Source: Podospora anserina (Eukaryota). From it: DNA of 64,000 bases. The stretch covers positions 1,798,001 to 1,862,000 of the forward strand of contig CM030332.1 in assembly GCA_017654855.1 (NCBI GenBank). Direction: 5' to 3'. Below the pieces are notes generated by a model. That model was not told where the DNA came from. It searched no databases and saw only the letters and a program-made list of their open reading frames with translations. Position 1 is the first letter of the stretch. Each line of letters opens with the position of its first letter. This document shows, piece after piece, positions 8,684-33,294 of the stretch. The position numbers and the translations under genes are program-made.

Positions 8684-10285
8684 ATGAAGCTCACCTCGGG
8701 TTTGGCGCTTGTTGCCGCAACCTTCCGGCTTGCCTTGGCCTCTGAGCCAACCTTTGAGACTCTTGTTTCCAGGGAGATCAACCTTCTCCAGCGGACCGAG
8801 TACGACATCTGCCAGGCAGACTGCAATCTAGCCGGAGTTTCATTCCCTGACAAGAACACTCTTCAGCTACCACTTGAGGACTACTACTCTGAGAGATGTC
8901 CTGAGATTTTCCTTGGCAATTACGACAATCCCAAGGGGAAATCGACAGTCTGTCTTGATTTTGCTGGACCATATCTGACCTTCACCTTCAACCCATTTCC
9001 CGGCCACACCACCACATCTGCCCAGGTCACCTGGGGACTCAAGGGCAACCCTCTCTACCCAGCTGGATACAAACCACCACCACCCACAAGAGCTGTTCAG
9101 TGTACACCAGGGCAGGATGGCACTTTCCTGTGCAAGGTTCCTTTCAACGAGATTATTAATGCTTCCAGCCATGCCGAGATCAAACACCTTCTTGAGGGCA
9201 TGTGCCCCAACGGCGACGAAGCGGGCCTCACCCTCTATCTCCAATTCGCCGGAAGCGTTATTGTACCTGATTCACACGAACCGATTCATTTCCAACAACA
9301 GTTCCCCTGCAAGCCCGGCGGTCGTAACAAACACGGCATATGCACCTCCTACGACTGTGACTACGACTATTTCGAGATCACCTACCGTTGCAGCAAGTGC
9401 CTAGTTGCCCCTTGCCATGCAACATGCGATACGACACCTGCTTACGGCTATCAGAGCCCTCGAAACTCCCATGATCTCAACACACAGAAGGGCACAGATT
9501 GCAAGAGCAGCTGGGGTTGGTATGAGACGCCCAGTATTCACGACCTCAGAAGGGGCATACACGGCCATCTCTACATCCAAGAAAAGGGCAAGTACTACGA
9601 GAGGATTGGCAGCTGGGCTGCTACCATCAACGCCCTGAAGAAGCTGGACGTCAAGCTCAAGATTACACCTGGCCTGAAGTACGTCATTGAAAAAGTCAAC
9701 ATCAACCTCTCCTGCCTCCCCATCACGACCTGCAAATCGGATTCTTTCACGTACACCAAGGATGTGCTCGGAGGCCTTCAAGAGTACGACACGGACGGCA
9801 TCCACTACCCTGCGTGCGGCCGGCGCTCTAGGGTTTACTTGATCGTTTCGGCGGATGTTGGGAATCCTGAGAATCAAGACGGTGTATGCGAGCGTCCACA
9901 TCATGATGAGCCTTCCCACAATGGAAAGCCACACGACGACAAGCCGTCGCACAGCGATAAGCCTGCTCATGACGGTCAGCCCCACGACGGGAAGCCACAT
10001 GATGGAGGGTCGCCCAATGATAAGCCTCACCACGACCAGCCCTCTCACCACGGGCAGCCCTCTCACCACGGCGGGCTCCCTCACCACGGCGGGCTCCCTC
10101 ACCACGGCGGGCTCCCTCACCACGGCGGGCTCCCTCACCACGGCGGGCTCCCTCACCACGGCGGGCTCCCTCACCATGGCGGGCTCCCTCACCATGGCGG
10201 GCTCACTCACCACGAAGGGCCCCCTCACCACCACAAACTCCATGATGGCACACCTTCTCACGACAAGAAGCGTTCCCGTGATTAA
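8684..10285 (+). CDS. Secreted Cys-rich protein with a His-rich tandem-repeat C-terminus
   Basis: 533-aa ORF with signal peptide MKLTSGLALVAATFRLALA, many Cys, a PAYGY..WGWY-type extracellular domain and a (HHGGLP)n tail. Confidence 0.85.
   Translation: MKLTSGLALVAATFRLALASEPTFETLVSREINLLQRTEYDICQADCNLAGVSFPDKNTLQLPLEDYYSERCPEIFLGNYDNPKGKSTVCLDFAGPYLTFTFNPFPGHTTTSAQVTWGLKGNPLYPAGYKPPPPTRAVQCTPGQDGTFLCKVPFNEIINASSHAEIKHLLEGMCPNGDEAGLTLYLQFAGSVIVPDSHEPIHFQQQFPCKPGGRNKHGICTSYDCDYDYFEITYRCSKCLVAPCHATCDTTPAYGYQSPRNSHDLNTQKGTDCKSSWGWYETPSIHDLRRGIHGHLYIQEKGKYYERIGSWAATINALKKLDVKLKITPGLKYVIEKVNINLSCLPITTCKSDSFTYTKDVLGGLQEYDTDGIHYPACGRRSRVYLIVSADVGNPENQDGVCERPHHDEPSHNGKPHDDKPSHSDKPAHDGQPHDGKPHDGGSPNDKPHHDQPSHHGQPSHHGGLPHHGGLPHHGGLPHHGGLPHHGGLPHHGGLPHHGGLPHHGGLTHHEGPPHHHKLHDGTPSHDKKRSRD
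10028..10225 (+). repeat. 18-bp coding minisatellite (caccacggcgggctccct): 7 HHGGLP + 1 HHGGLT, flanked by variant units
   Basis: Units start at 10064, 10082 ... 10190, preceded by HHDQPS/HHGQPS and followed by HHEGPP. Confidence 0.95.
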
Positions 10286-11384
10286 AAGCCTGCCTCCGAC
10301 AAGAAAGCCTTTTGATGGCGAACCTGCCAAGGATAAACATGGCGGAAATTTGGGAGTGGTATCTTCAACTCGGTGTTGACATGGAAGGATGTATTCTTGG
10401 GAGTGGCTTAAAAGTTGAGGTTTTGGAAAAGTGATATTCCTGGGTCTGGGTCAAAAGTTGAGGTTTTGGAAAAATGACATTTCGGTTTTCTTCTCCCGGC
10501 AGAGTCTCTTATACATATCTGTCTTTTTTCTTTCTTTCTCCTCTTGGCACTGAACTTGGACCAACGGTCATTGTACAAACGCCCGCTAGGGAGATTGGAC
10601 ATTTGTATTTACCTTCTCCTCCTTCGTTTTGATCTGGGCTGGTCGTGGTATATAGAAGTCGAAAGTAAATATCTTGTGAAAATTCCATTTTGGACGTCTC
10701 TGCTCTGGCATGGTGGGATGTGACCATATTGGAATGAGTCGAACTCTGGAATGTCTCGGTTAAGCTGGACAGCTTTGTGTGGTACGATTTCCATTGCTGT
10801 TCAACAGAACCAGAATAAGGCAGTCTTACAAAGGGCTGGTGCAAACACACTTGAAATGCTGTGCCGACTCAGGCAAGTCTTCTCCGTTCCTGCATCTGGG
10901 TGCATCTGGGATCACCGAGGATTTGTATTGTTCCCAATATGATCCAGTACCTTATCGTCAGTCATACGGAAAGCCAAAAACGGCCTTTTCATTGTGCCTG
11001 TGTAGGCAGCGACGGTCTGTCTTTAACTGGGGCCAGAAACAGCTCCTACGTTGGGGCATAGGAAATCGCTGCCTCTACTAAAGCCATTGATGGCTTTCAA
11101 TTTGAATACACAGCAAGAACCCACGCTTTCAAATGCTCACACCACTATTGGTTGAGCTCTCGAGCACGATCTTGAACTACAGGTGGACGGCATCTGCCTC
11201 CAAAACTGGCTGCTACCTACTACACACAGTCACTTTCGGCGCCTGAGCTCCTTGCACGGAAACCCAGAGCTTGGCTTTGCAAGGCTACATTGCAACCTGG
11301 CAAAGGTAGATGCAGCATCACAAGGATCATATCCAGCATCTTTGCTTTCTGTTTAGCCAGAAACGGCACCTCAGGATTCTATTC

Positions 11385-12125
11385 CTACGCCCCAGGTTTC
11401 TCAGCAAAATAAATCTGGGGAGCCGATTCTGCCTTGAGCCAAGACAGACAATCCGAGCTATTTTCCCCTGTGCTCCCCCTGAGTGACTCAGAGGAGTAAA
11501 GAGGACTGTGTGGCTCTACAATGGATGGCTTAAATGTGTTGTTTCTAGTGTTGCTGAACTGCTTACTGTAATCTCCCTTGCTGTGTGAGATGGCGCGACT
11601 TGCAAGACCAAGCTTCGGGCCGATCACCCAGATACGCTGATGAGCATCTCGTCTGCAAAAGCCAAGGTGCTTCATCAGCCGGGCGCAGATGGATCGTACG
11701 GGCGTCTCAACGAACTTGCCCACAAAGTGGTCGAGCGTCAAGTGATCTCCGATCTTACCCCGCGACATCTCCTGGCCCTGTGTTCGGGTGGCGTGCAGAC
11801 TCGGGAAGGCTTCTTGAACGGCCGGGTAGAGGGTGAATAAGCTGTCGAGGGTGCGGCGTTGTAGCGTGTCAAAGTCGTCCCAGTGTCGGAGATAGGTCGG
11901 GCAAAGCTTGCCATGCGGGGCCGAAGCAGGGCCGGCTGTAGTAAGCCTGGGATCCCGCTGTACTTCGAACGTGGTAAAGAGATGCTGGTGACAATATTCT
12001 AGGTACTCGACAAGTGTGGTGTTGCGGACCTCGCGTTGGGCCTCCTCTGCCCGGCGCTCAGCCACCTCTGCCCGACGCTTAGCATCATCAACTTCCTTTC
12101 GTAACTTCACAAGCTCTGCCTCCAT
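11385..12125 (-). pseudogene. Truncated Spok-family (spore killer-like) ORF: coiled coil + N-terminal conserved domain only
   Basis: A coiled coil is followed by RNTTLVEYLEYCHQHL, GKLCPTYLRHWDDF and DHFVGKFVETPVRSI. These match, from recall, the SPOK N-terminal pattern RKTTFLEYLHNCHRHL / GKYYPKRLRPWTNF / DRFEVDAVERPV. Similarity ends near aa 155; no nuclease or kinase domain is seen downstream. Confidence 0.75.
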
Positions 12126-12710
12126 CGATTTTGTAGGTCTTGTTGATGTTGATGAATGGCTGATGTGGTTTAAGGCTAGGGCGTTGCTTTGGTGAAATGA
12201 GCTTGGACACTCAAGTGGGGCTGGGTAAGTGCAAGAGTCGCGTAGTCACGTGCCTTCGATAGCGCGTGCCATGGTTGACAACACTTTGAGGCTGGAATTC
12301 AAGCACCCATGTGAGCACTGCAACTGCGGTGAGCTACTGTGCCAGAGTGCAATGCCGAGCATAATCAAGTCTGGACCGCCCTCAGATTTCTCAGCTCTGC
12401 GAAGCTCCTTATCTTTTGGCTCGGTGACCTACGATAAGATGCGAATCTGATTGGTCTCTCGCCAGCCAAGTTGCTGGGCCTTTCTTGGATCCTCCTGAAT
12501 ATCATCACCCACCAGCTTGGCGAGCTGGCAGTGGGACTTGGCGTACGTATGCCGTCTCGGCGCGTCTCACTGCCACGACTGACACGCTCATTCGTTACTT
12601 GATTATTATCATGGCGAACATGGCTTCTTTTCTTTCTCATTCCTCTCAGCTTCTCATCCTCTTCCTCGAGCCAATTCCACCACGAACCATACACAAATCA
12701 ACAAGCCTTG

Positions 12711-14900
12711 ATGGCTTCCAACGTCGCACCATGGGATGACGTCAAGTACTTGACGGATGACGAGATCAACTTTTTTCTCGACGACCTCGACCACAACAAT
12801 GACGGGTTAATTGACTACAGCGAAGTCGAGCAGAAGCTGGATAAGGTCCATGAGGAGATTGCTCCCAAGGCACTTCCACACCATCTTCACCATGACGGTC
12901 GAGAGGACTTGGACCGTCATGCATTCCTCCGCGCCATTATCAAGTCAGACAAAAACCGGATCCCGCGCGCCGAGTTCGCCGAAACGGTCAAGAGCTGGAA
13001 GATTCCCAGCATGAAACAGGACCAGGCGAATGACAGCGAGCAAAAGGACTACATGCGCAAGATGGGCATCTGGAGACGGATGAAGTCTTACTGGGCTGTT
13101 CACGGGCCAGAAATCGCCTTTATTGGGCTGGTAGTGGCTATGCAGCTTGCTTTTGGGGTTTGGCAGTTTGTCAAGTACCTCACTGGAGAGTACTACACAC
13201 GCGGTTTTGGTTGGGGCGTGGTGCTGGCCAAGACTTGCGCTGGTGCTCTTTATCCGACCTTCTTCTTTCTGATTCTCAGCATGTCGCGGTATTTCTCGAC
13301 ATTTCTTCGACGGTCGTACTACATCTCAAGGTTCATCAACTGGGATTTGTCCCAGGAGTTCCACATCAGGATTTCGTGTGTGGCTCTTGTGCTCGCAAGT
13401 CTTCATGCAATTGGACACCTGGGAGGCTCTTTTGTTTGGGGCAGCAGGAAGGAAAACGAAGATGCCGTGGCTATCTTGCTGGGACCAGATGCTGTGCCAC
13501 GGCCGTATATTAACTACGTTAAGTCCTTGCCTGGGTTCACTGGTCTTACTGCTTTGGGCTTGTTTTATCTTCTTTCACTGCTGAGTACTCCTCCAGTCAG
13601 AAAGTGGAACTATGAAGTCTTCCAAATGGGCCATCTTCTGATGTATCCCATTATTGGGTTATTGATGGCCCACGGCACCGCAGGGCTACTTCAGTGGCCC
13701 ATGTTTGGGTACTGGCTTGCCTTCCCCACGCTCTTGGTTCTTACAGAAAGAATTGTGCGGCTACTGGTTGGTTTTCACAAAATCAGCGCTGCTCTTCAGG
13801 TTCTAGACAGCGAAACCGTCGCGATCAGAGCCAAGATTCCAAGTGAAAGAATTTGGAAATACAATGCTGGACAGTATGTCTTCTTGCAGGTCCCGGCCCT
13901 GAGCTTCTTTCAGTGGCATCCTTTCACAGTATCCACATGTATCGGTAATGAAATGCAGCTTCATATCAAAACCGACGGGAACTGGACACGCAGACTCCGT
14001 GACCTGGCTGGAAAAGATGGCATAGCACAGATTCAGATTGGCATCAACGGCCCATTTGGGGCACCAGCACAGCGCTTTTACGACTTCAGCCACACCATTG
14101 TTGTTGGTGCCGGTATTGGTGTCACCCCCTTCAGCGGTATCCTTACGGACTTGCAAGAGAAAGACGACAAAGCTCACAATGGCCCGGGTCTGGATGCTCC
14201 AATCACTGCAGGTGGAAGATCAACATCCCATGGCTCCCACCTCATCGGCCCTGGGGAGGATGGCTTGCAGGATTCGTCTGTCAGGGACAGGGAGAAGGTC
14301 TCTACTGGAGCCCCTATAGAAGACGCCAACCACCGGGAGACGCTCACCAAGGGAGGCAACGAGACGGACAACCACCCATCAGACTATCGCCGCGTTGACT
14401 TTCATTGGAGTGTCAGAGACAAGAACAACCTCCTCTGGCTATCCGATCTCCTAAACCGGGTTTCTCGCTCCCAGCAATGGCACGCTCAGCACCATAAGGA
14501 GGAGCACGGCCCCCATCTCGACATTAGAATTCACACCCACGTCACTCAGAAAAGGAACAACATCGCCACGCATGTATACCGCTGGTTGCTGGAGATGCAT
14601 CGTACTCCTGAGCACCCAGCCAGCCCGTTGACCGGACTGCTGAACGCAACACACTTCGGCAGACCAGATTTTATCAGGATTCTGGATAGGCATTATGAGG
14701 AGATGAAGGGGTACAAGGCTGAACTCGTAAGGAAAGACAAGGAAAAGTGGGAGGACGAGGAGTTCAAGGTCGGGGTTTTCTTTTGTGGGACACCGATTGT
14801 TGGGGAGATCTTGGCTGATAGGTGTCGCTTGTTGAGTGCGAGGGGCAGGACGGATGGGAGTAAGATCGAATATCATTTTATGATGGAGGTGTTTAACTAG
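12711..14900 (+). CDS. nox3: EF-hand NADPH oxidase, NoxC/Nox3 class
   Basis: EF-hand DHNNDGLIDYSE, ferric-reductase TM region with heme His residues, FAD motif QWHPFTVS, NGPFGAP, NADPH motif GAGIGVTPF, VGVFFCG and terminal EVF. An upstream exon is possible. Confidence 0.9.
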   Translation: MASNVAPWDDVKYLTDDEINFFLDDLDHNNDGLIDYSEVEQKLDKVHEEIAPKALPHHLHHDGREDLDRHAFLRAIIKSDKNRIPRAEFAETVKSWKIPSMKQDQANDSEQKDYMRKMGIWRRMKSYWAVHGPEIAFIGLVVAMQLAFGVWQFVKYLTGEYYTRGFGWGVVLAKTCAGALYPTFFFLILSMSRYFSTFLRRSYYISRFINWDLSQEFHIRISCVALVLASLHAIGHLGGSFVWGSRKENEDAVAILLGPDAVPRPYINYVKSLPGFTGLTALGLFYLLSLLSTPPVRKWNYEVFQMGHLLMYPIIGLLMAHGTAGLLQWPMFGYWLAFPTLLVLTERIVRLLVGFHKISAALQVLDSETVAIRAKIPSERIWKYNAGQYVFLQVPALSFFQWHPFTVSTCIGNEMQLHIKTDGNWTRRLRDLAGKDGIAQIQIGINGPFGAPAQRFYDFSHTIVVGAGIGVTPFSGILTDLQEKDDKAHNGPGLDAPITAGGRSTSHGSHLIGPGEDGLQDSSVRDREKVSTGAPIEDANHRETLTKGGNETDNHPSDYRRVDFHWSVRDKNNLLWLSDLLNRVSRSQQWHAQHHKEEHGPHLDIRIHTHVTQKRNNIATHVYRWLLEMHRTPEHPASPLTGLLNATHFGRPDFIRILDRHYEEMKGYKAELVRKDKEKWEDEEFKVGVFFCGTPIVGEILADRCRLLSARGRTDGSKIEYHFMMEVFN

Positions 14901-16403: not shown

Positions 16404-17474
16404 CTAGTACTGAGTAGCAGAAGAATCATATCTGATCCTCGCGACAATTTCATCCAGAAACCCCCACTCAATCCGATTATGAAGAATATGGTACCTCAAC
16501 AAAAAGTCAAGAATCACCAAGCCATTCTCCGGACTAAAGCTGTTAGCAAACAGCTCCCTCTCGAGCTCCTGGAAATTCAGCCAGATTAACTCGCTTACAT
16601 CGCACCCAAGCTCATAGACATGCCTGTGCTTGGGAAGGACCACATCAAAGATGTAGCGCCTCGAAAACTCGACAGTGCCCTCTCGGGCACTCCCGTATTC
16701 GGGGCCATGAATCTGAGTAGAGAAAATCTTACCCTGGGATGCGAAGAAGGTGTTGTCATCAAATAACCACCTGGAGATATCCTCACCTGCTAAACGCTTC
16801 AAAGCCGCCAGAGGCGAGGCATCAAGGGCGGAGACATTGGTAGTGAAGAAGGGAGCCAGCCTTGCGCCGCCACTTTTGGGACCACCAGGGACTCTACGAA
16901 CAAGGAGCTCATGATCGCCCTGTGGTGCCCGCCAGATGTTGAGGACAGCAAAGTGAGTGGGAATGCCGAGCACAGGGACCAGTGTACACGGGACCTTGAC
17001 CCCAGGGAGAATACCACAGGTGGAGGTGGGGATCGGAGCCTGAGTGTGCCCAGGAAAGACCATCGGTTGAAGGTTGCCAAACGGATTACCACTCAGGCGC
17101 CAAGCAGCGTCAAAGATGTCCCTGATGGCCTTATTCAGTGTTTCCGGGTTGGTGCAGTATTTGGATTTAAGCTGCATGTGGTTGTTGGGTTGGACTTCAA
17201 CGTTTTTGGCTTTGATGAAGTCGAAGAAGGAGGAAAGCCTCCGATCACCCTTGAAAATGCGGGCAGTTGATTCGAAAATCACGCCGCACTTTACAACAGT
17301 GTCGGTGTCCACAGGGTGGATTTGATTTCCTCGCTTGAGGAGAATGGTGAAGCGCCAGACGGGGAAGTCTTGACGGGGTTGCCAAACCCTGGTGCCATCT
17401 CCCTCCATGAAACCGTTGCCTTGCTTGAGGACGGCCAGGATGAGGCTGGTATCGGGCACAGGTGTGGAAGCCAT
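16404..17474 (-). CDS. Divergent YJR142W / thiamine-pyrophosphokinase-related Nudix-fold protein with a degenerate Nudix box
   Basis: VLGIPTHFAVLN, LLVRR, RYIFDVVLP and FSPENGLVILDFLLRYHIL parallel the family motifs FGVVTYGVH, IWVPRR, YVYDLELP and FKPNCALVxLDFxIRHGIL. ATG at 17474. Confidence 0.65.
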   Translation of the reverse strand: MASTPVPDTSLILAVLKQGNGFMEGDGTRVWQPRQDFPVWRFTILLKRGNQIHPVDTDTVVKCGVIFESTARIFKGDRRLSSFFDFIKAKNVEVQPNNHMQLKSKYCTNPETLNKAIRDIFDAAWRLSGNPFGNLQPMVFPGHTQAPIPTSTCGILPGVKVPCTLVPVLGIPTHFAVLNIWRAPQGDHELLVRRVPGGPKSGGARLAPFFTTNVSALDASPLAALKRLAGEDISRWLFDDNTFFASQGKIFSTQIHGPEYGSAREGTVEFSRRYIFDVVLPKHRHVYELGCDVSELIWLNFQELERELFANSFSPENGLVILDFLLRYHILHNRIEWGFLDEIVARIRYDSSATQY

Positions 17475-20394: not shown

Positions 20395-22399
20395 TATTCA
20401 ACAAGGGTGAGTGTAGAGGGTGGCGTTGGCTCAGTTTTACGTAGTAGCACACACGTTCAGTTCTCTTTATCATTCCGCGACTGTCCCACCATAAGTACCC
20501 ATAAATACCCACTTTTCCCAAAGTCCATTGGCTAGCAATTCAATCATACCTGTCATCTCTGGCTTATATCTACTTCCACACATCCTCAATGTGTTTACTA
20601 CCAGTCTTTCACTCGTAATTCCTAGGGACTGACTTATGGTCTTCCTCTTTCATGCCTTACACCTCTAAACTCCTACTAAAATTTACCGGGCTACTGCCGT
20701 TCTTGTCGTTCAAATAATGACCTAACGTACACATGTGTCGTTTCATAATGTCAATGACAGAAGACAAAACCACAGGAAACCCCCAGGCACGCAAGATACG
20801 CTAAACAGTGGCCCTGCCCACTGTAAAAAGACTAAAAGGTGTGGTTTCATTCCCCTACAAAGCAATATTATCAGCAACTACAATTCCAGATCCACCCAAG
20901 CCTGTTCCACCAATCTTTACTCTGAAAATCCCATCGTCGAATTGACTGCTGCCAGCATATATTTGGCCAACAACCCGATTTTCAACCGTGACAACAGCCC
21001 CAATATAGCGACACTCAAGATGAGAGCCAACAACCAAAAGAGCAGACCCCGCTTGGTTACCCGACCTCTCTGACGGGTGCGTCAAAAGCAGGCATCTATC
21101 CCATTGCCGAAGAGCACTCTCAACTTTTACAGCAGCAGCGACATCGTTGCCCTGTGGGCTCAAGTTGCCTGGCCTTCTCTCTGTCTATTTTATGAAATTG
21201 CCACATTCCTTCAACTGCCCCATCCGCATCAATAGTCAGCGTTCCAGATGAGTGTGCAAGGTCGCTGGCAGTGTCGACTGGCATATCAAAAAGTGTCGCC
21301 GGACACCAAGACCACGGCCCACGGTCCCTCATGGTCAGCTTTCCATGAAACAAGCAGCTATATGGAATTTTTCCCAGATGAGAAAGTACCTGAGCGGCGA
21401 TGATGCTCTCGCCATCAGCCAGGTCACAGTCAGGTACCTGAGCTAGCAGCGCAGAGATAATGGTACGATCCCGCACCCAAGATGTACTGCGGGTTGACAA
21501 AGCAGTGAGCAAGTCACCAACATTATCGATGGGCCTTCGCAGCCGCCGGATCAATGTTGTGGCAAGCCAATGTGCAGGAGAAGACGTAGCTGGATTTTGA
21601 GCTAGGATTTCAGTGCCAAAATCTTTCATCAGTGGTTCAGAATCCCCAGCTGGGTCTTTGACAACACCAACACCCTCTTTGACATGAACAGCTCCAAGGC
21701 AGTCCAGCCGCGTGTGAACCAAGTTGAAAGGATCATGGCGATACAAGGGCTGCCGTCGTCGCTCCAGGGGAAGTTGACGAGGTCTGTATCGTGGATGATG
21801 GTGTATTCGGCGTTGGCGTAGTTTTCGTGCATATTGTTGAGAGCTAGCCGTCGAGCCTTGGTGGCGCTCTCGATGGCTGGCAATGCGACATGTGAAGGCA
21901 GGAGCTGGTGGTTCCTTCGACCGAATCCCCTGGGGCCAAGCCCAAGATGGGATTGGATCCTTGCCATCCAGTAGATGAGATTCGACACTTCAGCCAGATC
22001 GACCGGGTAAGCATCGTTATTCAGATAGGGAATGCGGTACTGTTCGTGATTCCCGGCCTGCACGCACATCTTGAGTGCCATACACAACCTTTCAACCGAG
22101 ATGTGGATCTGAGACCGTCGTTCGGTGTGGAGGAGGACGGTCTGGCAACTCATTCCTGTTTAGGCCCAGCGCCGGAAGGCTTTCCATCCACACCCGGGGG
22201 CAGCTCCTTCCATCTTTGACCGCAGCTGTTGGCATGTACGACTCTTGCAATGACGAAGCCCCGCCTGCAAGGCAGCCAGGGCGATCTGGGATAAGAAGTC
22301 CATCTTTGGCTCAGTTGCATCCTCATGCAGCTCTGCAGCCAAATCTTCGACTTCCAGGTCAAACTTTGACACTTCTGTGTGTTGGGGAGTGCGAGGCCT

Positions 22400-23539
22400 T
22401 GTAAGGCCCCCGGGGGTATATGGTGGAGGTCGAGTGCAAACCCTACTACAGAGTACTATAGTGGTATTACAGAGGGCTAGCGCTACATATACAGAAGGTC
22501 ACCTACTATTGCTCTGTCTTATAGTGCTGTAAGGCACTAGAGCCCACGCACACCCAAAGTTAAGCTACTGGTACCGTGTAGCAAAGGTTCCGCTGCGCCG
22601 TGAGCACTAAAGTGCTCTACCGTTATAGGGCCCTTAGGCTTGTATATGAACTCAACCTTTTAATAATACATAAATCCAATATTATTAAAAAAATATAAGT
22701 TAAGGTAGTAAATAAATTGATATATATTTCACATTAAATAAAGAAGAAATTAAGTTAATAAGTATAAATTTGGAGTTTTTGAAAATAATTTCGGAAACTT
22801 TTTTTATTTATTAATACTACCTAATAAATACAGTAAGTACATATTAAGTAATCTCTATATAGAATAAAAAATCGACAAATATCTAAATAACTTTTAACTA
22901 AAATATATAAATTTTAAATGATTCCTAAATAAAGTAAATATACTTTAAATAGCTCCTAAATAAAGCAAATAGACCCAAATATACCTTTAGTAAAGTGTCA
23001 CGGCTTGACACTTGGTGGGGCGCGGGGCGCACCACGGACCAATCAGAACAGGATCAATAGGATCGAGGATCGATCCAGGAGAGTCAACCCCAAAAGGGAC
23101 AGTATCGATAGGATCGATGGTCGAGTCTATCGATCCAGGACAGTGCCAGGCTTGGCACTAGGTCTATATATACGGAGGAACTGGCTGGTGTAGATAGATA
23201 GTTCCGCAGTATGCAATACAATTCACAATCGTGGTATCTTAAGCTATTGTGATTGAGACAAGCCATTTGTTGTACACTGTTTAGCTGTACCGAACCAGGA
23301 TTGTTCAGAAGTGCCTTCAACCAGTGTCCCTTTCAGAGGTTCTGGATAAGGGTTCGTCACATAAAGTAAGTAAACTCAAACTAAATTTTGAGCTAAGTAA
23401 GTACACTTTAAATAAACGATAAGGTAGGTAAGTAAACGGGAACTGAAGATGGGCCGGTCCTAAGCTCCGATTAATTTTATTTGTATAAAGCGGCGAGGAG
23501 TTACGTAGCGAATTAAGACTAGATTCCGGTATTGTCATA
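22400..23539. mobile_element. Old RIP-mutated solo-LTR-type insertion with an AT-rich core and a nested younger solo LTR; TSD GGCCT
   Basis: Starts TGTAAGG and ends GTCATA (ACA->ATA, RIP-type). GGCCT at 22395-22399 and 23540-23544. Strongly TpA/AT-rich at about 22660-22995. Confidence 0.75.
22996..23361. mobile_element. Solo LTR (366 bp), TSD TAAAG
   Basis: TGTCACG...CGTCACA termini, TAAAG on both sides (22991-22995, 23362-23366), internal TATATATA, and normal GC content unlike its AT-rich host. Confidence 0.9.
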
Positions 23540-24441
23540 GGCCTAACGGCAGACGATCGTAATGCGACTGTGAGCGCAATTACCAAACAACACTCTTATA
23601 GGGGGGTGCCGATATCTTCTGACAGATCTCCCCCTGTTTTATTCGCCCCAGGTTGGCTGCTGTCATAGCACTCGTCTGCGTCTATCTCATCTTTTTTGAA
23701 CGTGCTTTCCTCCAACTTTGATATCCAAAGTTGGTTGGTGTGTTGATCGGTGCTGTTCTTCGGGTGGGCCATTTTGATCTCCTGTGAAAAGACTCTGTTC
23801 AGCATGGTGGCTTTCCGAGGAGCTTGGAATGGATGTGGGTTGACTTCAAGATCCATATCTGTGGAAAAAGTACCTCTATATGCATGGTCAAGTATTTACC
23901 GTGAGCAATTGTCGAGGTCTCCAATCCCACAACCCAGCTTTGGTCGTTCTCATGAAACAACATGGTTATCTGCTTTCACCTTGAAGCGGATCACAAGTCT
24001 TTCGCGGAGATGAATAGGGGATCATCGCTCTGTTTGGGGTTAAGGTTTCCTTCGGTGATATCAGGGGTCGATTCTTTGACAATGTCACGGGAGCAAGAAA
24101 CGCCGCCAAAAAAGGTATGTATGGTTACTCTTCCGTCTATCAAAAAATGGAAAGATTCCTATTGGTTCTTCTCGTTAAAGCTACCACTATATATGAGCTT
24201 GGCATAAAATCGCAGGGAACAGAGAGGGTGAGAATTTAGGCAAATATCACGATCACCATTGATCACGTTCCATCACCCAGATTGGCGAGAGTTGAAACGA
24301 GGAAGACACGGTAATCTTTTCAATATGCAGTGTTGTTTAACTTGATTCAATGAGATGAACTCCTACTTTATTTTCGCATCTCAAGTTCACTTCACATGTG
24401 CTTTTGTTCTCATCCAGATTGCCAAAACCTTGTAAGTGACC

Positions 24442-26262: not shown

Positions 26263-29200
26263 TCAAACCGGAAAATCTCGCATTCCCAACAGCTGCACAA
26301 ACTTTGCGTGCTTCTCCCTTTGTAGTGCCTTTGTGAATCCATCCGCCGGCATCTCCAACCCAGAGATGTGTTGAATACCAAATCTTCCTTCCTTCACTTG
26401 TTCACCCACCCACTTGTACCGTATATCGATACACCGGGTCCTGGCGATATTCTGAGGGTTCAGAACTGTGATTTCGGCGTTCTTACTATCGGTGTACAGC
26501 ATGTATGGCCTTGGCTGTGGCACACCACAGTCTTCCAATATCTTTGACACCCACTGCAGTGAATACCCTGTAGGCGTCAGGTTGGCAAACTCTGCCTCCG
26601 TCGTACTCAGGGCGACGAAGGTCTGCTTCTTACTCTTCCACAATACTGGCCCACCAGCCACGAAGACGACGTGGCCGCCAGTGGAATATCTCCAAGGTAA
26701 GACATCCGCGTGTGAGGCATCTGCGAATCCCACAAGCTTCATATCTTCTGCCGAGAACTCGGAGCCTCCCAGCACAATACACAGCTTCCTGGTGGCAGCC
26801 AGGTACCGGAAAAGGTGCTTCATCAACTCCAAGTGACGTGGTGAGGGCCCAGAATTGCCCCCGCAAAGGCGGTTAACGGTGAAAGTAATGTCGGGCCGAG
26901 TGCCGGTAGACAGCCAGTTCAACGCACCGGTCTTCCGAATATACTCCTTCACTTCCGCGGTCATTTTCTCCCACGTAAAAGGGAGCTCCAGCTTGGCTGG
27001 CCACGGCGTAGCCACGCCGGCCATGTCTTTATAGCCGAACTTCTCGAGTAAGGCGTCGATATAGGCCACCTGGGACAGGTAGACCTGCCTCTTCCCGCGG
27101 TTCCTCACGATATCAAAACCCAAGAACCTCTTCGGCTCGCCTAGTTTCTTGATGCCATACTTGCTCTCCAGCCCGGTAGCGATATCTTCAATGATTTTCG
27201 TCGTAGGCGCTGATATAAGTAGGTCATCCACGTACAGGACTACCAGGGCACCTGTCTCTTTGTGACGGAACAGGCAGAGGTCTGATGAGAGGGTATCGAA
27301 GCCCAGTTCAACCATCACAGGTTTCACTGTCTCGTACCAGTAGATAGGTGACTTCCTCAGGCCGTATAATGCCCTTTTGAGCCGGCACACCTTGCCCAGT
27401 GGCTTGCCCAAGCTATCTGGTGGTCGTACGTAGTACTGTGCGGTGTCAGGGATTTTGGCGTTGAGAAATGCCATCTTGAAGTCGTATTGAAGGCACTCCC
27501 AGTCATTCACGGCTGTAATAGCCCAAAAGCATTTGACTGCCACGCTACTCACAACGGCGGCGTAGACGTCCTGTGTGGCCCAGGAGTCCCTGTCAAAGTT
27601 GCCACACACCACCCACCTCGCCCTGGCCTTCACCTCACCAGTTTGAGGGTCCATCTTCTCATCGTATACCCATTTGCTCGGTAAGACGTTGTAGCCTTTC
27701 GGCGTATCCACCAGCTCGTAGACGTCCTTTTCCAACAGGCCGGCGTCCTGCTCCTTCATGGCAGGCAGCCAATACTTGTGGTAGTTCTCGAGCTTCCTCG
27801 CTTGCCGGTAGTTCCTGGGTATATGGGACTTGTTGATGGTTTGCAGAAGGTGGTCGATTTTGACCGTGGATAGGGCGTAGGCCACTACCTCACGTAGTCG
27901 TGGGTTGTCGAGATGTACTGTGAAAAAACCTTGGTAAGGGTGTTTACCCTGCTGTAGCTTCTTGTAGAAGCCTGGTCCCTGATTTTTTGTTGTTGCTCTG
28001 CGAGGCCGCTCCTGAGCCGGCGGAGAAGCCACCGCTTCCTCCATATGGCCTGTATCAGGCTCGAAATCGTCGTCAGAGTCTTCGACCAGGCTTTCCGTGC
28101 CTGAATCCAGTAGCCTGCCATCGGCCTGGTCATCACCAGGCCCCCCCATAGCCTCACCCTCCTCCCCCCATCAGCCTCGCAGGGGAGGTGAGCTCTCTCA
28201 TGGCAGGAGAGTCAGTGGTATAGGGCGCTTGGTCATGGTTTGGTGGGATAGGTGCCTCGGACCGTATATCCTCCACCTCTTCGGCGTCGAAAAAAGTCTT
28301 CCACGTCTGAGGCCTCAGGTAGTGGAGGTAGTGTTGGTGACGGCGTAGCTTTCGGAGTAGGTAGAATGGTCTGCCCAGGGTCCTTGGCCTTCCCTGTTTC
28401 AACTGTTGGAGCACTCTGCTGTGGATCGGGCTCCAGTATGGTGGTAGGTTTGTCATCGAAGGTGACCTTCCTCCCCAAGGATACCGTTCTGTTGGTGACG
28501 GCATCTTCTTCTTCGGCTATAGTACTATCAGTAAAGACTGCCTCGTACTCAATATCCTTATACTCATCGTCGTCAGGCCTGTAAGAATCGCCTTCGTTGA
28601 ACTTCACGGCGTTGACCTTCACGACTTTGTTAGTGACTGGGTTCCAGACCCAGTATATTTTGCCGTGTATATCTGCGTAGCCGATAAGCTTTCCTTTCTC
28701 CGCCCTGGCGGTGAACTTATCCGAATTGGCCCGGTAGGCCGGCTTGACGTAGTAATACGCGTCGCAAAAGTACGAGCGTAGGTGCCGAATATACGGCTTC
28801 CGCTCGCCCTCGGGCATGTTGAGCCTTGTGGTATACTTCTCGTGAGCACTGATATCTCCCTCGTTGACCCTCGAGGGCAGTAGGTTACCCACGTAAACCA
28901 CAGACTGCATGACAAATGGGAACAGCTTCTCTGGCACCTTGTAGGCCAGCATGATAGCCCTGGTGCGGTTAAGCGTAGTCCTCGCGGCCCTCTCCACCTT
29001 TCCATTCATCCACGGTGAGTGAGGCACGGTCTTGAGGATGGTGATGCCCTCCTGGTCGGCCCAGGCGGCCATGCGGCTGTCGTCAAAGGTCCCAGAGCCC
29101 TGGGCAAATTCCGTACCGCCGTCAAGGCCGATGATGCTGATCTTATGCCCGGTTTGGCGCGCGATCTTCGTCTCGAAATCCTTGACCTTATCGAATACCT

Positions 29201-30016
29201 GCTTTTTCTCCACTGTGAAGTTAATCCACTTGTAGCCACTCCACATATCTACGTATTGGATAGAGTACTTGTAACCCAGATATCCAGGGTTCTTGTGGGT
29301 GACGACGTCGATACGGATGAAGTCGAACGGGTTGTTGGTCTGCGAAGGGGTCGATGAGCCTAGTTGATCTGTTATCTTTGCCATCACGCAGGGCTCGCAG
29401 AAAAAGTCATTGCCGACGAGCTTAATACCCGCCTGCGTACAAGCCTTGTAAATATCGTCCTTGTTGGCGTGCATTAGGCGGCGATGCATTACCCGGTAGT
29501 TGATAGATGCCATCACGGCCTTGATGGGAGTCTTCGCCAGGGATACTTTGCTGAAATCGGCGCCGGGCGTCGTATTTATCTGGTATATGTTGTTATTCCT
29601 GGTCAACTCACACACCACCTGCTTAGTACCTCTAAGGACCAGGTTGTGGCTCTCCTGGTCCCAGAAGATACCTTTATCGAGTAGCTTGCCCGCCGATATC
29701 AGATTGACGGGCGCCTGTGGGTGGTATACCGCTTCCTTGAGCTCCAGGGTAACAGCCTGGCCACTTGAAAGGGTAGATTGCAGCGCTGCGGCACCCTGGT
29801 AGCTGCACTTTGTGATATCTCCTGACGACGAAAGGAACCTCTTTTCCTTCCCTCAGGTAGTAAGTGGAGCTCGGTGAACCACTTCAGTTTATTGAATACG
29901 AAATCCGCGCATCCGGAGTCGTAGTACACGTGGTCTTTGAATGCCTCGACGGCCTGTTGGACTTCAGGGGCATCTACTGAGGAGAGTGCTGCCTCTGGGG
30001 GCCGAGACGAAAATCC
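26263..30016 (-). CDS. pol: Copia pol (protease, integrase, RT, RNase H), broken by single-base indels in homopolymers
   Basis: PR YYDSGC; GAG-pre-integrase HRRLMH..CEPC; INT D..LDGGTEF..NGKVER; RT KARWVV, LYGLRKSP, YVDD; RNase H ADASHA..TEAEF..ADGFTKAL. Confidence 0.9.
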
Positions 30017-31107
30017 GATTGGTCATCGTCATGGTAGGTGGGGAGCGATATATTGGCGAAGTTGTTGGACAGCATCAGGGTACTGTGGGCAGGTCGGTCC
30101 CTCGAAGACCCAGTATTGGTGACGCCACCAGTATGGCCTTGAAGAGTCCCTGTTGACGAGCCAGTACTCTGCCGCCTCTCTTGCCTATCCGCTTGTGCCT
30201 TTTCCCCTGTGCTCCCAATCCTTGGAGCCTTGTCAGGGTCACACCACCAACAGGCCTTGCCCTTCGGGTGGTGACGACCACAGCCCATGCAGTGCTGGTT
30301 GCCTTTCCTTAAGCCCTTGGTGCATTGGTCGCACTTCTTCGTCGAGGTTGATGATGTGGCAGGTGAGGGTGTAGTCGCGGCCGGGGCCTTGGTGGTCTCG
30401 ATGGTGATTTTGGAGTGAGCCGGCGTGGTCTCCTCCGTAACGGCCTTGGCGCTATACTCCTGGCAAAGAAGCGACCAGGTCATGGTGCCGTCTTCCATCT
30501 TCCTTGCTAGCCGGTCGTACAAATCGGGGTACGCGGTCTTGATGCCGTTCAGGGCAGCCCAGAGGTGAGCCACGTGGCCGATCTTGATTTCCATCGTATC
30601 AAGACGACGGCGAAGGACCTCGAGCCGGCTGAAGTAGGCTTGGAATGAGGCGAAGTTGGCACGCTTGAGAGTGAAATACTCCTCCAAAAGTATACCAGCG
30701 ATGTTAAAAGTGCCGCGCTGTAGGGCTTGGATAATCTTCTGGTATAGACCATAGGCACCAATGCCGTCGGCCTTCCAACCCAGGTTGAGAATTCGTTGTC
30801 GGATCTCGGGCTTCTTGACGGAAGCCATTATCAGGTTCTGGATGTCCAGGTTGTTAGTACGCCATTGGTCGAAGGCAGGTGTCCCTTCTTCCGCTGGTGG
30901 CTGTATATTAGCCTTGATGTAGTCCTCTAAGCCATGGTACATAAGGGACTGGGTTAACTGAAATTCCCAGCCGGAAAGATCGGTCTCTGAGTTCAGAGCC
31001 GGCAAGGCTTGAAAGGTTCGTTGCCTAACCGTAGCGACGGTGTTGGCATTCCCCATAGCTTTCACAAGCTCTAAGAGCTGGGCCATGGTGACGTTAGTGC
31101 CAGCCAT
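29974..31107 (-). CDS. gag: Copia gag with zinc-knuckle-like C-terminus
   Basis: ATG 31107, helical capsid-like region, CDQC..HCMGCGRHH..CWWC; lies just downstream of the 5' LTR/PBS leader. Confidence 0.85.
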   Translation of the reverse strand: MAGTNVTMAQLLELVKAMGNANTVATVRQRTFQALPALNSETDLSGWEFQLTQSLMYHGLEDYIKANIQPPAEEGTPAFDQWRTNNLDIQNLIMASVKKPEIRQRILNLGWKADGIGAYGLYQKIIQALQRGTFNIAGILLEEYFTLKRANFASFQAYFSRLEVLRRRLDTMEIKIGHVAHLWAALNGIKTAYPDLYDRLARKMEDGTMTWSLLCQEYSAKAVTEETTPAHSKITIETTKAPAATTPSPATSSTSTKKCDQCTKGLRKGNQHCMGCGRHHPKGKACWWCDPDKAPRIGSTGEKAQADRQERRQSTGSSTGTLQGHTGGVTNTGSSRDRPAHSTLMLSNNFANISLPTYHDDDQSDFRLGPQRQHSPQ

Positions 31108-31660
31108 CTTGAAAGAAAAACTGGTCAAAGAGAAGTCGTAAGAAAGACGCTGTGAGAAAGACGTCGAAAGAAAGACTCAAAGAAAGGCGCCACCTGACTT
31201 TGTGGCCGCCAACAGTGGGTTGAATTGACTTGGGCAGAGGGCGAGATGCTTGCTCCGCTATCGGTCTCCTGATAAGGCAGGACAGAGTTCTCGACTGCTG
31301 CCGGAAAACAGTAATTTCCCAGCCAAAAGGTCGCAAAAATGGCAGAACCAAGGAAACTTGGCCAGGAGAAGGTTGGCGCCGTAAACCACACTCTTATCGG
31401 TGAGGGGTGGTCGGTCGCTTCAACTCTTCGTCAAGATGAGGGTCAGGGTTAAAACCAGGCTTCCGTTGATTGGGAAGTTGGTTAACTCTCTCAACGCCTC
31501 CAAAATCGCCGTCGAAAGGTCCAATTGCGTGATATTGGCCTGACAAGGGTCGAAAAGTCGTAAGGTCCGGTGTGGTATTCGGCCTTGCGAGGTCGGGTTG
31601 TCGACGAGGGCGTCGACTTCGGTTTGCTTGGTGATTTAAGCGTCAAAAGAGCTCATAACC

Positions 31661-32319: not shown

Positions 32320-33294
32320 ATGAGTAGTCGCGCTTGTATCAGCTGCAGCCGCAGTCTGCCCAGGTCGTCCTACACCGCCAACCAGTATTCAAGGGGTGAG
32401 GGCGATTCGTGTTGTGCTGCTTGTGTCCACAGCCACCGAAACGATACACCGACCGCCATCCAAAGTGACAGCGGCCGTTACAACAGGGCTAACGAGGCGA
32501 AGTTCACCCAAAATTCCATGGCTAACCCCTTTGTGCAAGGCGCCTTCCGCTGGGTCGCCAAAGGAGCATATGTGGACGGTGGGCGCCAAGGTCAGGCTTG
32601 TGTTTGCAAGTGGTTCAAGGCCGGCGGAACTATGGACAGCGATTATTTCACTCTCGACATCAAGTCCGTGGACAAGGCGCTGGAGATCATCAATCACTTC
32701 AATCAGCTGAACATACTGAACAAGACTGTGAAGGTAAACGTACCGGAGGTTTGGGTCTGGGGGGGGAATAACAGCCGTGCGGGCCAGAAAAGCCTCGTTG
32801 AACCATTCATTCAGAATTACAAGAAGTTCAATAGCAACTCAGGTTGGACTGATGAGTCCAAACCATGGGCGTTGGCAATGCAGGCGTTGAGCCATTTCAG
32901 CTACCACATTTCAGGGGGAAACTTTGTTCTCTGTGATCTCCAAGGAGGCATCTACCAAAACGAAGTTGTCTTGACCGATCCCGTCATTCTATCCCCAACT
33001 CAACAGTACGGTGTCACAGATCTCGGCCCCAATGGCATCAGTTCCTTTTTCAGCCAGCACGTTTGCAATGAGCACTGTCGCCCTACTCGGACTGCCCCAC
33101 ACAACCCGGTTCGGCACTTAATCCGGTCCTGGTACTTCGATGATGGCGCGCCGTGTCCCGACGGCTGGTTCAAAACCCACCAACACACGGTACTTTCTCT
33201 AGATTTGAAGAAGCACGCCGCCATGCAGGACGAGCCATGGCAACACGTTTGGCCCCTTATTGCGAGAACGAAAGCTACAGGAATTAGGAAATGA
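32320..33294 (+). CDS. Alpha-kinase (eEF2K/MHCK family) with an N-terminal C2C2 zinc motif; true stop probably at 33202
   Basis: PFVQGAFRWVAKG, VCKWFK, LVEPFI..KFNSNSGW, QALSHFSYH, LCDLQG, LTDP, TDLGPNGISSFF..HVCNEHC. Two homopolymer deletions near 33118-33128 shift the tail from FNPVPGTSMM. Confidence 0.9.
   Translation: MSSRACISCSRSLPRSSYTANQYSRGEGDSCCAACVHSHRNDTPTAIQSDSGRYNRANEAKFTQNSMANPFVQGAFRWVAKGAYVDGGRQGQACVCKWFKAGGTMDSDYFTLDIKSVDKALEIINHFNQLNILNKTVKVNVPEVWVWGGNNSRAGQKSLVEPFIQNYKKFNSNSGWTDESKPWALAMQALSHFSYHISGGNFVLCDLQGGIYQNEVVLTDPVILSPTQQYGVTDLGPNGISSFFSQHVCNEHCRPTRTAPHNPVRHLIRSWYFDDGAPCPDGWFKTHQHTVLSLDLKKHAAMQDEPWQHVWPLIARTKATGIRK

What the first reader, a model, noticed from the sequence alone, without database searches (positions are those of the whole stretch)
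11385..12125. Truncated homolog of Spok meiotic-drive genes beside Nox3
The first ~155 aa have the SPOK N-terminal architecture: a heptad-like coiled coil (AKRRAEVAERRAEEAQ), then TTxxEYLxxCHxHL, GKxxPxxLRxWxxF and VExPV. Known SPOKs continue into a PD-(D/E)XK nuclease (killing) and a Cys-cluster/kinase region (resistance); neither is seen here, and the ORF runs into unrelated sequence. The start and N-terminal domains carry no stops. This may be a dead driver relic or, speculatively, a domesticated N-terminal fragment able to interact with full-length SPOK-like proteins. It appears clearly diverged from Spok1-4 as I recall them.
Basis: partly seen in the sequence, partly recalled or inferred. 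Interest (0 to 1): 0.75.

Follow-up and report, generated by a model that had tools for sequence, protein, structure and literature searches.

The report
Decaying Spok-like gene remnant beside PaNox3
This is the leftover front end of a spore-killer (Spok) family gene in Podospora, already listed in 2014 as the Spok-like gene Pa_1_5015; it has lost its killing and resistance parts and is breaking down differently in sister species, so it is an ordinary dying gene.

Summary
On the minus strand, 12125..11385 is an open 246-codon frame. Its first 153 residues are a complete Spok-family N-terminus: a coiled coil plus the Pfam SPOK2_N domain. They are 66% identical to the start of a 761-aa Triangularia verruculosa protein and score E 2.4e-40 against a profile of 97 distant family members. 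The nuclease, Cys-cluster and kinase regions are absent from all 64 kb.

The locus is not new. Sibling-species orthologues carry locus tags _105015 next to PaNox3 (_105020). That makes it Pa_1_5015, which Grognet et al. 2014 listed among three extra "Spok-like genes" of P. anserina.

The evidence favours decay over domestication:
- One related allele has two frameshifts inside the N-terminal domain.
- Another allele still keeps about 117 residues of the nuclease region that this window has deleted.
- Annotated sibling proteins end at 143 or 152 residues, and two carry C45W and F50C at near-invariant sites.
- Protein identity among siblings is 92-95%, against about 99% for PaNox3.

The ORF lies in contigs of four runs guessed to be RNA, probably from the promoter region shared with PaNox3. 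Interest is low.

The parts
11385..12125 (-). Open reading frame of 246 codons plus stop; orthologue of Pa_1_5015, a Spok-like gene remnant
   Evidence: ORF and translation; the exact protein is in public collections, and its 90% cluster holds the QC76x_105015 proteins of three sibling Podospora species.
12027..12125 (-). N-terminal coiled coil (aa 1-33), much shorter than in relatives
   Evidence: single helix over residues 2-33 with pLDDT 95-98; relatives carry 28 or more extra repeat residues here. A variable-length repeat is typical of Spok genes (Vogan 2019, passages read).
11667..12026 (-). Globular part of the SPOK2_N domain ('domain 1' of SPOK proteins, function unknown), aa 34-153
   Evidence: PF27653 is precomputed on the allele that differs by 1 aa. 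PF27653 = SPOK2_N, structural TM 0.83-0.89; profile E 2.4e-40; 19 of 20 near-invariant columns kept, and the exception (H128) is shared with the full-length close relatives; mean pLDDT 90.5.
11655..11666 (-). Deletion scar, four codons (LGFC). It replaces about 139 residues that a related allele (P0006) still has, including the start of the PD-(D/E)XK nuclease region
   Evidence: P0006 residues 35-151 align to P0002 182-298 and include the D...ExK motif.
11388..11654 (-). Tail of 89 codons with no similarity to Spok proteins, followed by the stop at 11385-11387. The same tail follows the older truncation point in P0006/P0259
   Evidence: no homology to full-length relatives; 84/89 identical plus one indel against P0006; no Pfam family.
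11602..11647 (+). 46-nt piece resembling one unit of an NLR-type TPR repeat, antisense to the ORF tail; probably filler DNA from the rearrangement that truncated the gene
   Evidence: 31-63-nt contigs at depth 8-1088 (most at 500 or more) with 1-2 mismatches in all four runs. Their loose ends diverge on both sides and, read in frame with the window, continue a TPR-like motif; plus-strand frame reads ...KLRADHPDTLMS.... The TPR assignment is recalled; Pfam does not detect it at this length.
12126..12710 (.). Divergent intergenic region shared with PaNox3; probable bidirectional promoter
   Evidence: contigs over the relic end at 12175 (two runs) or 12301 (one run). PaNox3 contigs start at 12333/12338 (three runs). 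One run has a single contig bridging both genes.
12711..14900 (+). PaNox3 (EF-hand NADPH oxidase), the neighbouring gene
   Evidence: Ferric_reduct, FAD_binding_8, NAD_binding_6 and a weak EF-hand; the exact 729-aa protein clusters with proteins named PaNox3 and with QC76x_105020.

Best explanation
The ORF is a pseudogene remnant of a Spok-family (meiotic-driver toxin/antidote, IPR052396) gene. It is the locus known in Podospora anserina as Pa_1_5015. An ancestral full-length gene of about 760 aa resembled the one still intact in Triangularia verruculosa and Cercophora sp. It was first cut inside its nuclease domain at about residue 298, just before the QxxxY motif, and joined to unrelated DNA that includes a scrap of an NLR-type TPR repeat. 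That single event removed both the killing and the resistance machinery. [quoted passage not shown] This window's lineage lost a further ~405 nt in frame, leaving only the coiled coil and SPOK2_N domain fused to a 93-residue junk tail. Other lineages acquired frameshifts, earlier ends or replacements of invariant residues. It appears to be transcribed without splicing, most simply because it sits head-to-head with PaNox3 and shares its promoter region. Shown: homology, absence of the other domains, the allele differences, and the contig cover. Inferred: the order of events, the promoter explanation, and the lack of function.
For: Family identity:
- aa 1-153 are 66% identical to the N-terminus of a 761-aa protein with a Kdo/protein-kinase C-terminus.
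- PF27653 (SPOK2_N) is precomputed on the allele that differs by 1 aa.
- An independent family profile scores E 2.4e-40.
- Family alignments show the PD...ExK, QxxxY, Cys-cluster and HxD...N / DFE kinase motifs in the full-length relatives.

Loss of domains:
- tblastn finds nothing beyond 11667 in the 64 kb.

Known locus:
- Sibling orthologues are tagged _105015, PaNox3 is _105020, and the next gene is 355/356 identical to PODANS_1_5023.
- Grognet 2014 (PMC4022471, passages read) names Pa_1_5015 as Spok-like and says such genes are often pseudogenes through truncation.

Decay:
- P0007 follows this ORF in frame 0 (95/104), then frame 2 (18/19), then frame 1 (24/27), which means two frameshifts. 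Its 7225-nt contig has the same length as the contig holding a PaNox3 that is 99.5% identical to the window's.
- P0006/P0259 keep 117 more Spok residues and then the same tail.
- Sibling proteins end at 143 or 152 aa, and two carry C45W and F50C.
- Relic identity is 92.1-95.1% against 98.9-99.5% for PaNox3.
- The Spok-derived part (126/138 identical) is no better conserved than the junk tail (84/89).
- In the 46 codons that P0007 reads out of frame, the visible changes are 1 synonymous and 3 non-synonymous in frame 0.
Against: - In this species the frame is open from M1 to the stop. The exact protein was seen on 10 contigs and a variant differing by 1 aa on 3 more.
- 19 of 20 near-invariant domain-1 positions are kept, and the fragment is predicted to fold confidently (pLDDT 90.5).
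- It lies in contigs at depth 10-32 in 4 of 4 runs guessed to be RNA, from 4 studies. PaNox3 contigs are at depth 19-37.
- Four annotated members of the complex keep at least 143 codons open.
- Two other neighbours of unknown function also diverge quickly: 89-96% and 94-97% identity to the rows that are not near-identical. The fast rate is therefore not unique to this locus.
- No true dN/dS could be computed because I had no DNA for the other alleles.
- The Atlas holds clusters of short SPOK2_N-only proteins (232 aa with 93 members; 346 aa with 61 members). These could be real short forms rather than fragments.
Confidence: 0.85

Rival explanations
1. Domesticated N-terminal fragment. The coiled coil plus SPOK2_N module is kept in P. 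anserina as an expressed small protein. It could pair through its coiled coil with full-length SPOK-like proteins and modulate drive.
For: The ORF is open and near-identical on 13 contigs. It is present in contigs of four runs guessed to be RNA. Conserved residues are retained and the fold prediction is confident. The second deletion kept the reading frame. Short SPOK2_N-only clusters exist in the Atlas. Vogan 2019 predicts that the N-terminal coiled coil forms a parallel dimer (passage read).
Against: One allele in the complex has two frameshifts. Two sibling species carry C45W and F50C, and gene models end at three different places. Protein divergence is 5-8% against 0.5-1.1% for PaNox3. The Spok part is no better conserved than the junk tail. 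The coiled coil is much shorter than in relatives. Grognet 2014 report that none of six in-frame truncated Spok1 alleles kept killing or resistance (passages read).
Confidence: 0.08
2. The gene is really full length. The missing nuclease and kinase parts would be joined by an unrecognised intron or lie just outside the compared region.
For: The Fusarium Spok paper warns that Spok gene models are often mis-annotated (PMC12693581, passages read). A 465-aa C-terminal family fragment (P0008) exists in some public assembly.
Against: tblastn finds no further piece in the 11 kb downstream or the 52 kb upstream. The contigs over the ORF show no joints. P0008 resembles the Cercophora protein and has no known link to this genome. 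Sibling annotations are also short.
Confidence: 0.02
3. The transcript, not the protein, is what matters: a non-coding RNA or a by-product of promoter use that influences PaNox3 expression.
For: The relic and PaNox3 are arranged head to head. Contigs over the two genes end 32-160 nt apart, and in one run a single contig bridges them.
Against: There is no evidence of conservation beyond neutral, no structure test was done, and contigs cannot show strand or level.
Confidence: 0.05

Closest known systems
Pa_1_5015 of Podospora anserina (Grognet et al. 2014, PLoS Genet, PMC4022471)
   Same: It is this locus. The orthologues' locus tags (_105015), the adjacent PaNox3 (_105020) and PODANS_1_5023 match. 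The paper lists it among three additional Spok-like genes, present at the same locus in strains S and T, with transposable elements nearby. A copia-type element lies at 26263-31176.
   Different: The passages I read give only the name. They do not describe the anatomy reported here: which domains survive, the two-step truncation, the TPR-like scrap, or the differing decay in sibling species. I could not see the paper's figure 6 or its supplements, which may mark it as a pseudogene.
Spok-psi-1, the pseudogenised Spok of P. anserina (Vogan et al. 2019, eLife, PMC6660238)
   Same: It is a dead Spok-family copy in the same species.
   Different: Spok-psi-1 lacks the 5' end and carries stop codons and a transposon insertion (passage read). 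The present remnant is the mirror image: only the 5' end survives and its frame is still open. It also belongs to a more distant lineage of the family.
Full-length relatives QBC40DRAFT_291318 (Triangularia verruculosa, 761 aa) and OQA88_12596 (Cercophora sp. LCS_1, 768 aa)
   Same: They are 78% and 72% identical over aa 1-153 and share the domain-1 motifs.
   Different: They keep the nuclease, Cys-cluster and kinase regions and a longer coiled-coil repeat. Whether they drive is unknown, and I could not check synteny.
Active Spok1-4 meiotic drivers
   Same: The N-terminal architecture is the same: a variable coiled coil followed by domain 1 of unknown function (Vogan 2019, passages read; Pfam SPOK2_N).
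   Different: Killing needs the PD-(D/E)XK domain (K240). Resistance needs the Cys cluster and the kinase (D667) (same paper). All three are absent here. Direct identity to Spok1-4 was not measured.

Membership tests
Spok / SPOK-like family (IPR052396; Pfam SPOK2_N plus nuclease plus kinase) | N-terminal coiled coil made of a variable-length repeat | tested here: met
   Helix over residues 2-33 at pLDDT 95-98. Alignments show length variation of this segment across the family.
Spok / SPOK-like family (IPR052396; Pfam SPOK2_N plus nuclease plus kinase) | Domain 1 (SPOK2_N, PF27653) | tested here: met
   PF27653 is precomputed on the allele that differs by 1 aa. The Atlas names PF27653 as SPOK2_N, with TM 0.83-0.89. 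My own profile of 97 members scores E 2.4e-40. The local Pfam copy lacks this model.
Spok / SPOK-like family (IPR052396; Pfam SPOK2_N plus nuclease plus kinase) | PD-(D/E)XK nuclease domain with the catalytic lysine and QxxxY motif (killing) | tested here: not met
   Absent from the ORF and from the whole window. A related allele (P0006) keeps the D...ExK part but not QxxxY.
Spok / SPOK-like family (IPR052396; Pfam SPOK2_N plus nuclease plus kinase) | Cys cluster C-x3-C-x13-C-x5-H upstream of the kinase (resistance) | tested here: not met
   Present in P0002, P0003 and the family consensus. Absent here.
Spok / SPOK-like family (IPR052396; Pfam SPOK2_N plus nuclease plus kinase) | C-terminal kinase-like domain with a catalytic aspartate (resistance) | tested here: not met
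   Relatives hit Kdo, Pkinase and APH, and the family profile hits solved kinases at E 4e-7. The ORF has no Pfam hit beyond a chance coiled-coil match, and there is no tblastn match in the window.
Spok / SPOK-like family (IPR052396; Pfam SPOK2_N plus nuclease plus kinase) | Spore killing and resistance in crosses | not testable with these tools
   This needs genetics.

The most novel reading that the evidence does not exclude
In P. anserina itself, the open, apparently transcribed 246-aa product (coiled coil plus an intact SPOK2_N domain) is made. It would interact with SPOK-family proteins or their targets and act as a natural modifier of spore killing. That would be the first clue to the function of SPOK domain 1, which is still unknown and matched no solved fold here.
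Probability: 0.06. Interest if true: 0.7.

Novelty: already known. Interest (0 to 1): 0.15.

Why it matters
It matters little on its own. Grognet et al. 2014 already stated that Spok-like genes are common and often pseudogenised in Pezizomycotina, and they named this very locus.

The modest added value is an anatomy of how such a toxin/antidote gene dies:
- The first cut fell inside the nuclease domain, so killing and resistance were lost together. This fits the published finding that a Spok3 allele lacking only the kinase end is toxic (Vogan 2019). Truncations that spare the nuclease should be selected against.
- The stump then decayed along different paths in species that are about 99% identical in the neighbouring PaNox3 protein.

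The locus could serve as a near-neutral comparison sequence in Spok evolution studies. It is also a ready-made natural "domain 1 only" allele for anyone who wants to test what that domain does.

Tried and rejected
- **Whole-genome search:** no genome is held for this window. Other Spok copies or the lost C-terminal part elsewhere in the genome could not be sought.
- **Local Pfam on the ORF:** only a chance PUMA_CC match (E 0.4), because the local copy lacks PF27653.
- **Pfam on other pieces:** no family for the tail, the plus-strand frame across it, the downstream ORFs or P0006. The TPR reading of 11602-11647 therefore rests on the loose ends and a recalled motif.
- **Fold search for domain 1:** Foldseek against the PDB gave no match with E <= 0.001 (best 4.1). 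VIA-align 2 against 48,161 chains gave a best Z of 4.1. No fold could be named; this does not show that the fold is new.
- **Earlier notes of this scan:** nothing by place, sequence or words.
- **Sequencing runs:** no listed holder is on record as RNA. Six holders were only guessed to be RNA, and four of them were laid. The stretch 10674-11108 had no cover in any of the four.
- **Literature:** Pa_1_5015, Pa_7_3950, Pa_4_4000 and PaNox3 were found only in Grognet 2014. Specific Fusarium locus tags from my hit list gave no paper. Urquhart & Gardiner 2022 has no passage on the N-terminal domain.
- **True dN/dS:** not possible without DNA of the other alleles. Protein-level and out-of-frame proxies were used instead.
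- **RIP indices:** uninformative on 459 bp (TpA/ApT 0.94, GC 0.586).
- **Complex prediction:** not used, because the report does not claim binding.
- **Starship captain or other mobile context:** Pfam on 20 large ORFs found only a copia-type retroelement. This check is not exhaustive.

Full report
**1. What is there**

On the minus strand, an ATG at 12125 opens a frame that runs to a stop at 11387..11385, giving 246 aa. The gene to the right on the plus strand (12711..14900) is an EF-hand NADPH oxidase. Its exact 729-aa protein clusters with proteins named PaNox3.

**2. Family identity**

- A search for longer relatives found three proteins of 761-770 aa. The best is a hypothetical protein of Triangularia verruculosa (P0002). 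It matches aa 1-153 at 66% identity, E 1e-79, with a 28-residue gap in the coiled coil.
- These relatives end in a Kdo/protein-kinase-like domain.
- P0002 has 108 word-search relatives and 2366 representatives at E <= 0.001 in the exhaustive search, 668 of them at <= 1e-30. They are spread over Sordariomycetes, Eurotiomycetes and other groups. Many are Fusarium proteins, and one is named 'Meiotic driver SPOK2-like'.
- Family alignments show the features that Vogan et al. 2019 describe for SPOK3 (PMC6660238, passages read). These are a variable coiled coil, domain 1, a PD...ExK nuclease motif with QxxxY, the C-x3-C-x13-C-x5-H cluster, and a kinase catalytic loop with a DFE motif. The family profile hits solved kinases at E 4e-7.
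- The precomputed Pfam hit on the allele that differs by 1 aa is PF27653. The Atlas names this family SPOK2_N and aligns aa 1-153 to SPOK2_N clusters at TM 0.83-0.89.
- My own profile used 97 members and left out this fragment and its two close relatives. It scores E 2.4e-40 over aa 7-153, and the best of 200 shuffles reached 7.0 bits.

The N-terminal identity is secure.

**3. What is missing**

tblastn of three full-length relatives against the 64 kb matches only 12125..11667 or 12101..11676. Residues 154-246 resemble nothing in the family and no Pfam family. The nuclease (killing), Cys-cluster and kinase (resistance) regions are gone.

**4. It is a known locus**

- The 90% cluster of the protein holds QC764_105015 (P. 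pseudoanserina), QC762_105015 (P. pseudocomata) and QC763_105015 (P. pseudopauciseta).
- PaNox3 orthologues are tagged _105020. The next gene (16407..17474, minus strand) is 355/356 identical to PODANS_1_5023 of P. anserina S mat+, whose siblings are tagged _105023.
- The tags therefore mirror the Pa_1_xxxx numbering, and this ORF is Pa_1_5015. That equivalence is my inference from those rows.
- Grognet et al. [quoted passage not shown] All have transposable elements nearby and sit at the same locus in strains S and T. The paper adds that Spok-like genes are often pseudogenes through mutation or truncation.
- A copia-type retroelement lies at 26263-31176.
- A search for the three gene names found no other paper. 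I could not see that paper's figure 6 or its supplements.

**5. Decay in related alleles**

(a) P0006 and P0259 (264 aa, unnamed assemblies) start at the equivalent of M120.
- They continue past ...ARLMKH for 117 residues that are 82% identical to P0002 148-298 and include the D...ExK motif.
- They then diverge and join the same tail as the window, which is 84/89 identical plus one indel.
- So the first truncation, at about residue 298 and before QxxxY, is shared.
- The window later lost about 139 residues, replaced by four (LGFC), in frame.

(b) P0007 (150 aa) follows the window's frame 0 (95/104 identical), then frame 2 (18/19), then frame 1 (24/27). That means two frameshifts inside domain 1. 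Its contig is 7225 nt long, the same length as the contig carrying a PaNox3 that is 99.5% identical to the window's. This allele therefore lies within the species complex and, I infer, next to Nox3.

(c) The annotated sibling proteins stop at 152, 152 and 143 aa. Two of them carry C45W and F50C, at positions that are at least 90% conserved in the family.

(d) Identity to the window protein is 92.1-95.1% for the relic, against 98.9-99.5% for PaNox3 within the complex. Two other neighbours of unknown function are also fast: 89-96% and 94-97% identity to the rows that are not near-identical. The rate is high but not unique to this locus.

(e) The Spok-derived part is 126/138 identical between alleles (95/104 plus 31/34). 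It is no better conserved than the junk tail at 84/89.

(f) In the 46 codons that P0007 reads out of frame, the four visible base changes are 1 synonymous and 3 non-synonymous in frame 0. This is about the neutral expectation, but the sample is tiny.

**6. Evidence for function**

- The ORF is open in this species. The exact protein is on 10 contigs, and a C147F variant is on 3 more.
- 19 of 20 near-invariant domain-1 positions are kept, and the exception (H128) is shared with the full-length close relatives.
- AlphaFold2 models aa 1-153 at mean pLDDT 90.5, as a long helix plus a helical bundle.
- Four of four runs guessed to be RNA, from four studies, carry contigs over the ORF: 11369-12301, 11395-12175, 11488-12175, and one from 11523 that bridges into PaNox3. 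Their depths are 10-32, against 19-37 for the PaNox3 contigs. No joints were seen, and none of the four covers 10674-11108.
- Contigs cannot give strand or level, and the RNA label is a guess.
- The head-to-head arrangement with PaNox3, with contig ends 32-160 nt apart, makes promoter sharing the simplest explanation. That is an inference.

**7. The tail**

- At 11602-11647, short contigs with 1-2 mismatches pile up in all four runs, at depths of 8-1088 and mostly 500 or more. Their flanks diverge from the window.
- The plus-strand frame there reads like part of an NLR-type TPR unit, and the loose ends continue that frame. I recognise the motif from memory only; Pfam does not detect it at 24 aa.
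- P. anserina NB-ARC NLRs carry TPR repeats, and some NLRs have near-identical repeats (PMC13449251, passages read).
- I infer that a scrap of such a repeat was captured, in antisense, when the gene was broken.

**8. Domain 1**

Domain 1 matched no solved structure. The best Foldseek E was 4.1, and the best VIA-align Z was 4.1 over 48,161 chains. This agrees with Vogan 2019, who found no functional assignment for it. It does not show that the fold is new.

**9. Verdict**

- The 'dead relic' reading is well supported (0.85).
- The 'domesticated fragment' reading is not supported, though it is not excluded for P. anserina itself (about 0.06-0.08).
- The locus was already named as Spok-like in 2014.

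The first cut lying inside the nuclease domain makes biological sense. Spok3(1-490), which keeps the nuclease but lacks the kinase, is toxic (Vogan 2019). A survivable truncation therefore has to disable killing as well. This last point is my inference.

Noticed in passing
window 11602-11647 (+): A 46-nt stretch is nearly identical (1-2 mismatches) to something very abundant in four runs guessed to be RNA (contig depths mostly 500-1000). It reads like one unit of an NLR-type TPR repeat and sits antisense inside the relic's tail.
   Followed up: partly
window 26263-31176 (-): Three long ORFs of a copia-type LTR retroelement (RVT_2 at E 4e-47; retroviral SH3-like domain). The frames look largely open.
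   Followed up: no
window 8684-10282 (+): A 533-aa protein with what looks by eye like a signal-peptide start (MKLTSGLALVAATFRLALA; not tested) and a His/Gly/Pro-rich C-terminus, including eight tandem HHGGLP units. It has no Pfam family, and this exact sequence is not in the protein collection although its neighbours are, which suggests repeat-number variation between strains.
   Followed up: no
window 32320-33291 (+): An alpha-kinase family ORF (E 5e-54). Its 90% cluster holds only unnamed assembly fragments of 66-324 aa and no annotated protein, so it may be unannotated, split by introns or decaying.
   Followed up: no
window 22001-24000: The lowest G+C in the window (0.434 against about 0.51-0.55 elsewhere). 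It lies next to the retroelement and may be RIP-mutated repeat remains.
   Followed up: no
window 43339-46659 (+): An NRPS-like carboxylic acid reductase architecture (AMP-binding, PP-binding, NAD_binding_4) spread over two adjacent frames, with a GST upstream (41674-42423).
   Followed up: no
window 16407-17474 (-), Pa_1_5023: This neighbour of unknown function is only 94-96% identical among most species of the complex and 89.4% for one 292-aa model. Named rows call it Nudix-hydrolase-domain or HNH-nuclease-domain containing. Some assemblies have 395-396-aa versions, so it is fast-evolving or variably annotated.
   Followed up: no
protein P0008 (unnamed assembly, 2375-nt contig): A 465-aa C-terminal Spok-family fragment (Cys cluster plus kinase). 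It is 75% identical to P0002 307-759 and starts almost exactly where the P0006 allele loses homology. Its origin and any link to this locus are unknown.
   Followed up: partly
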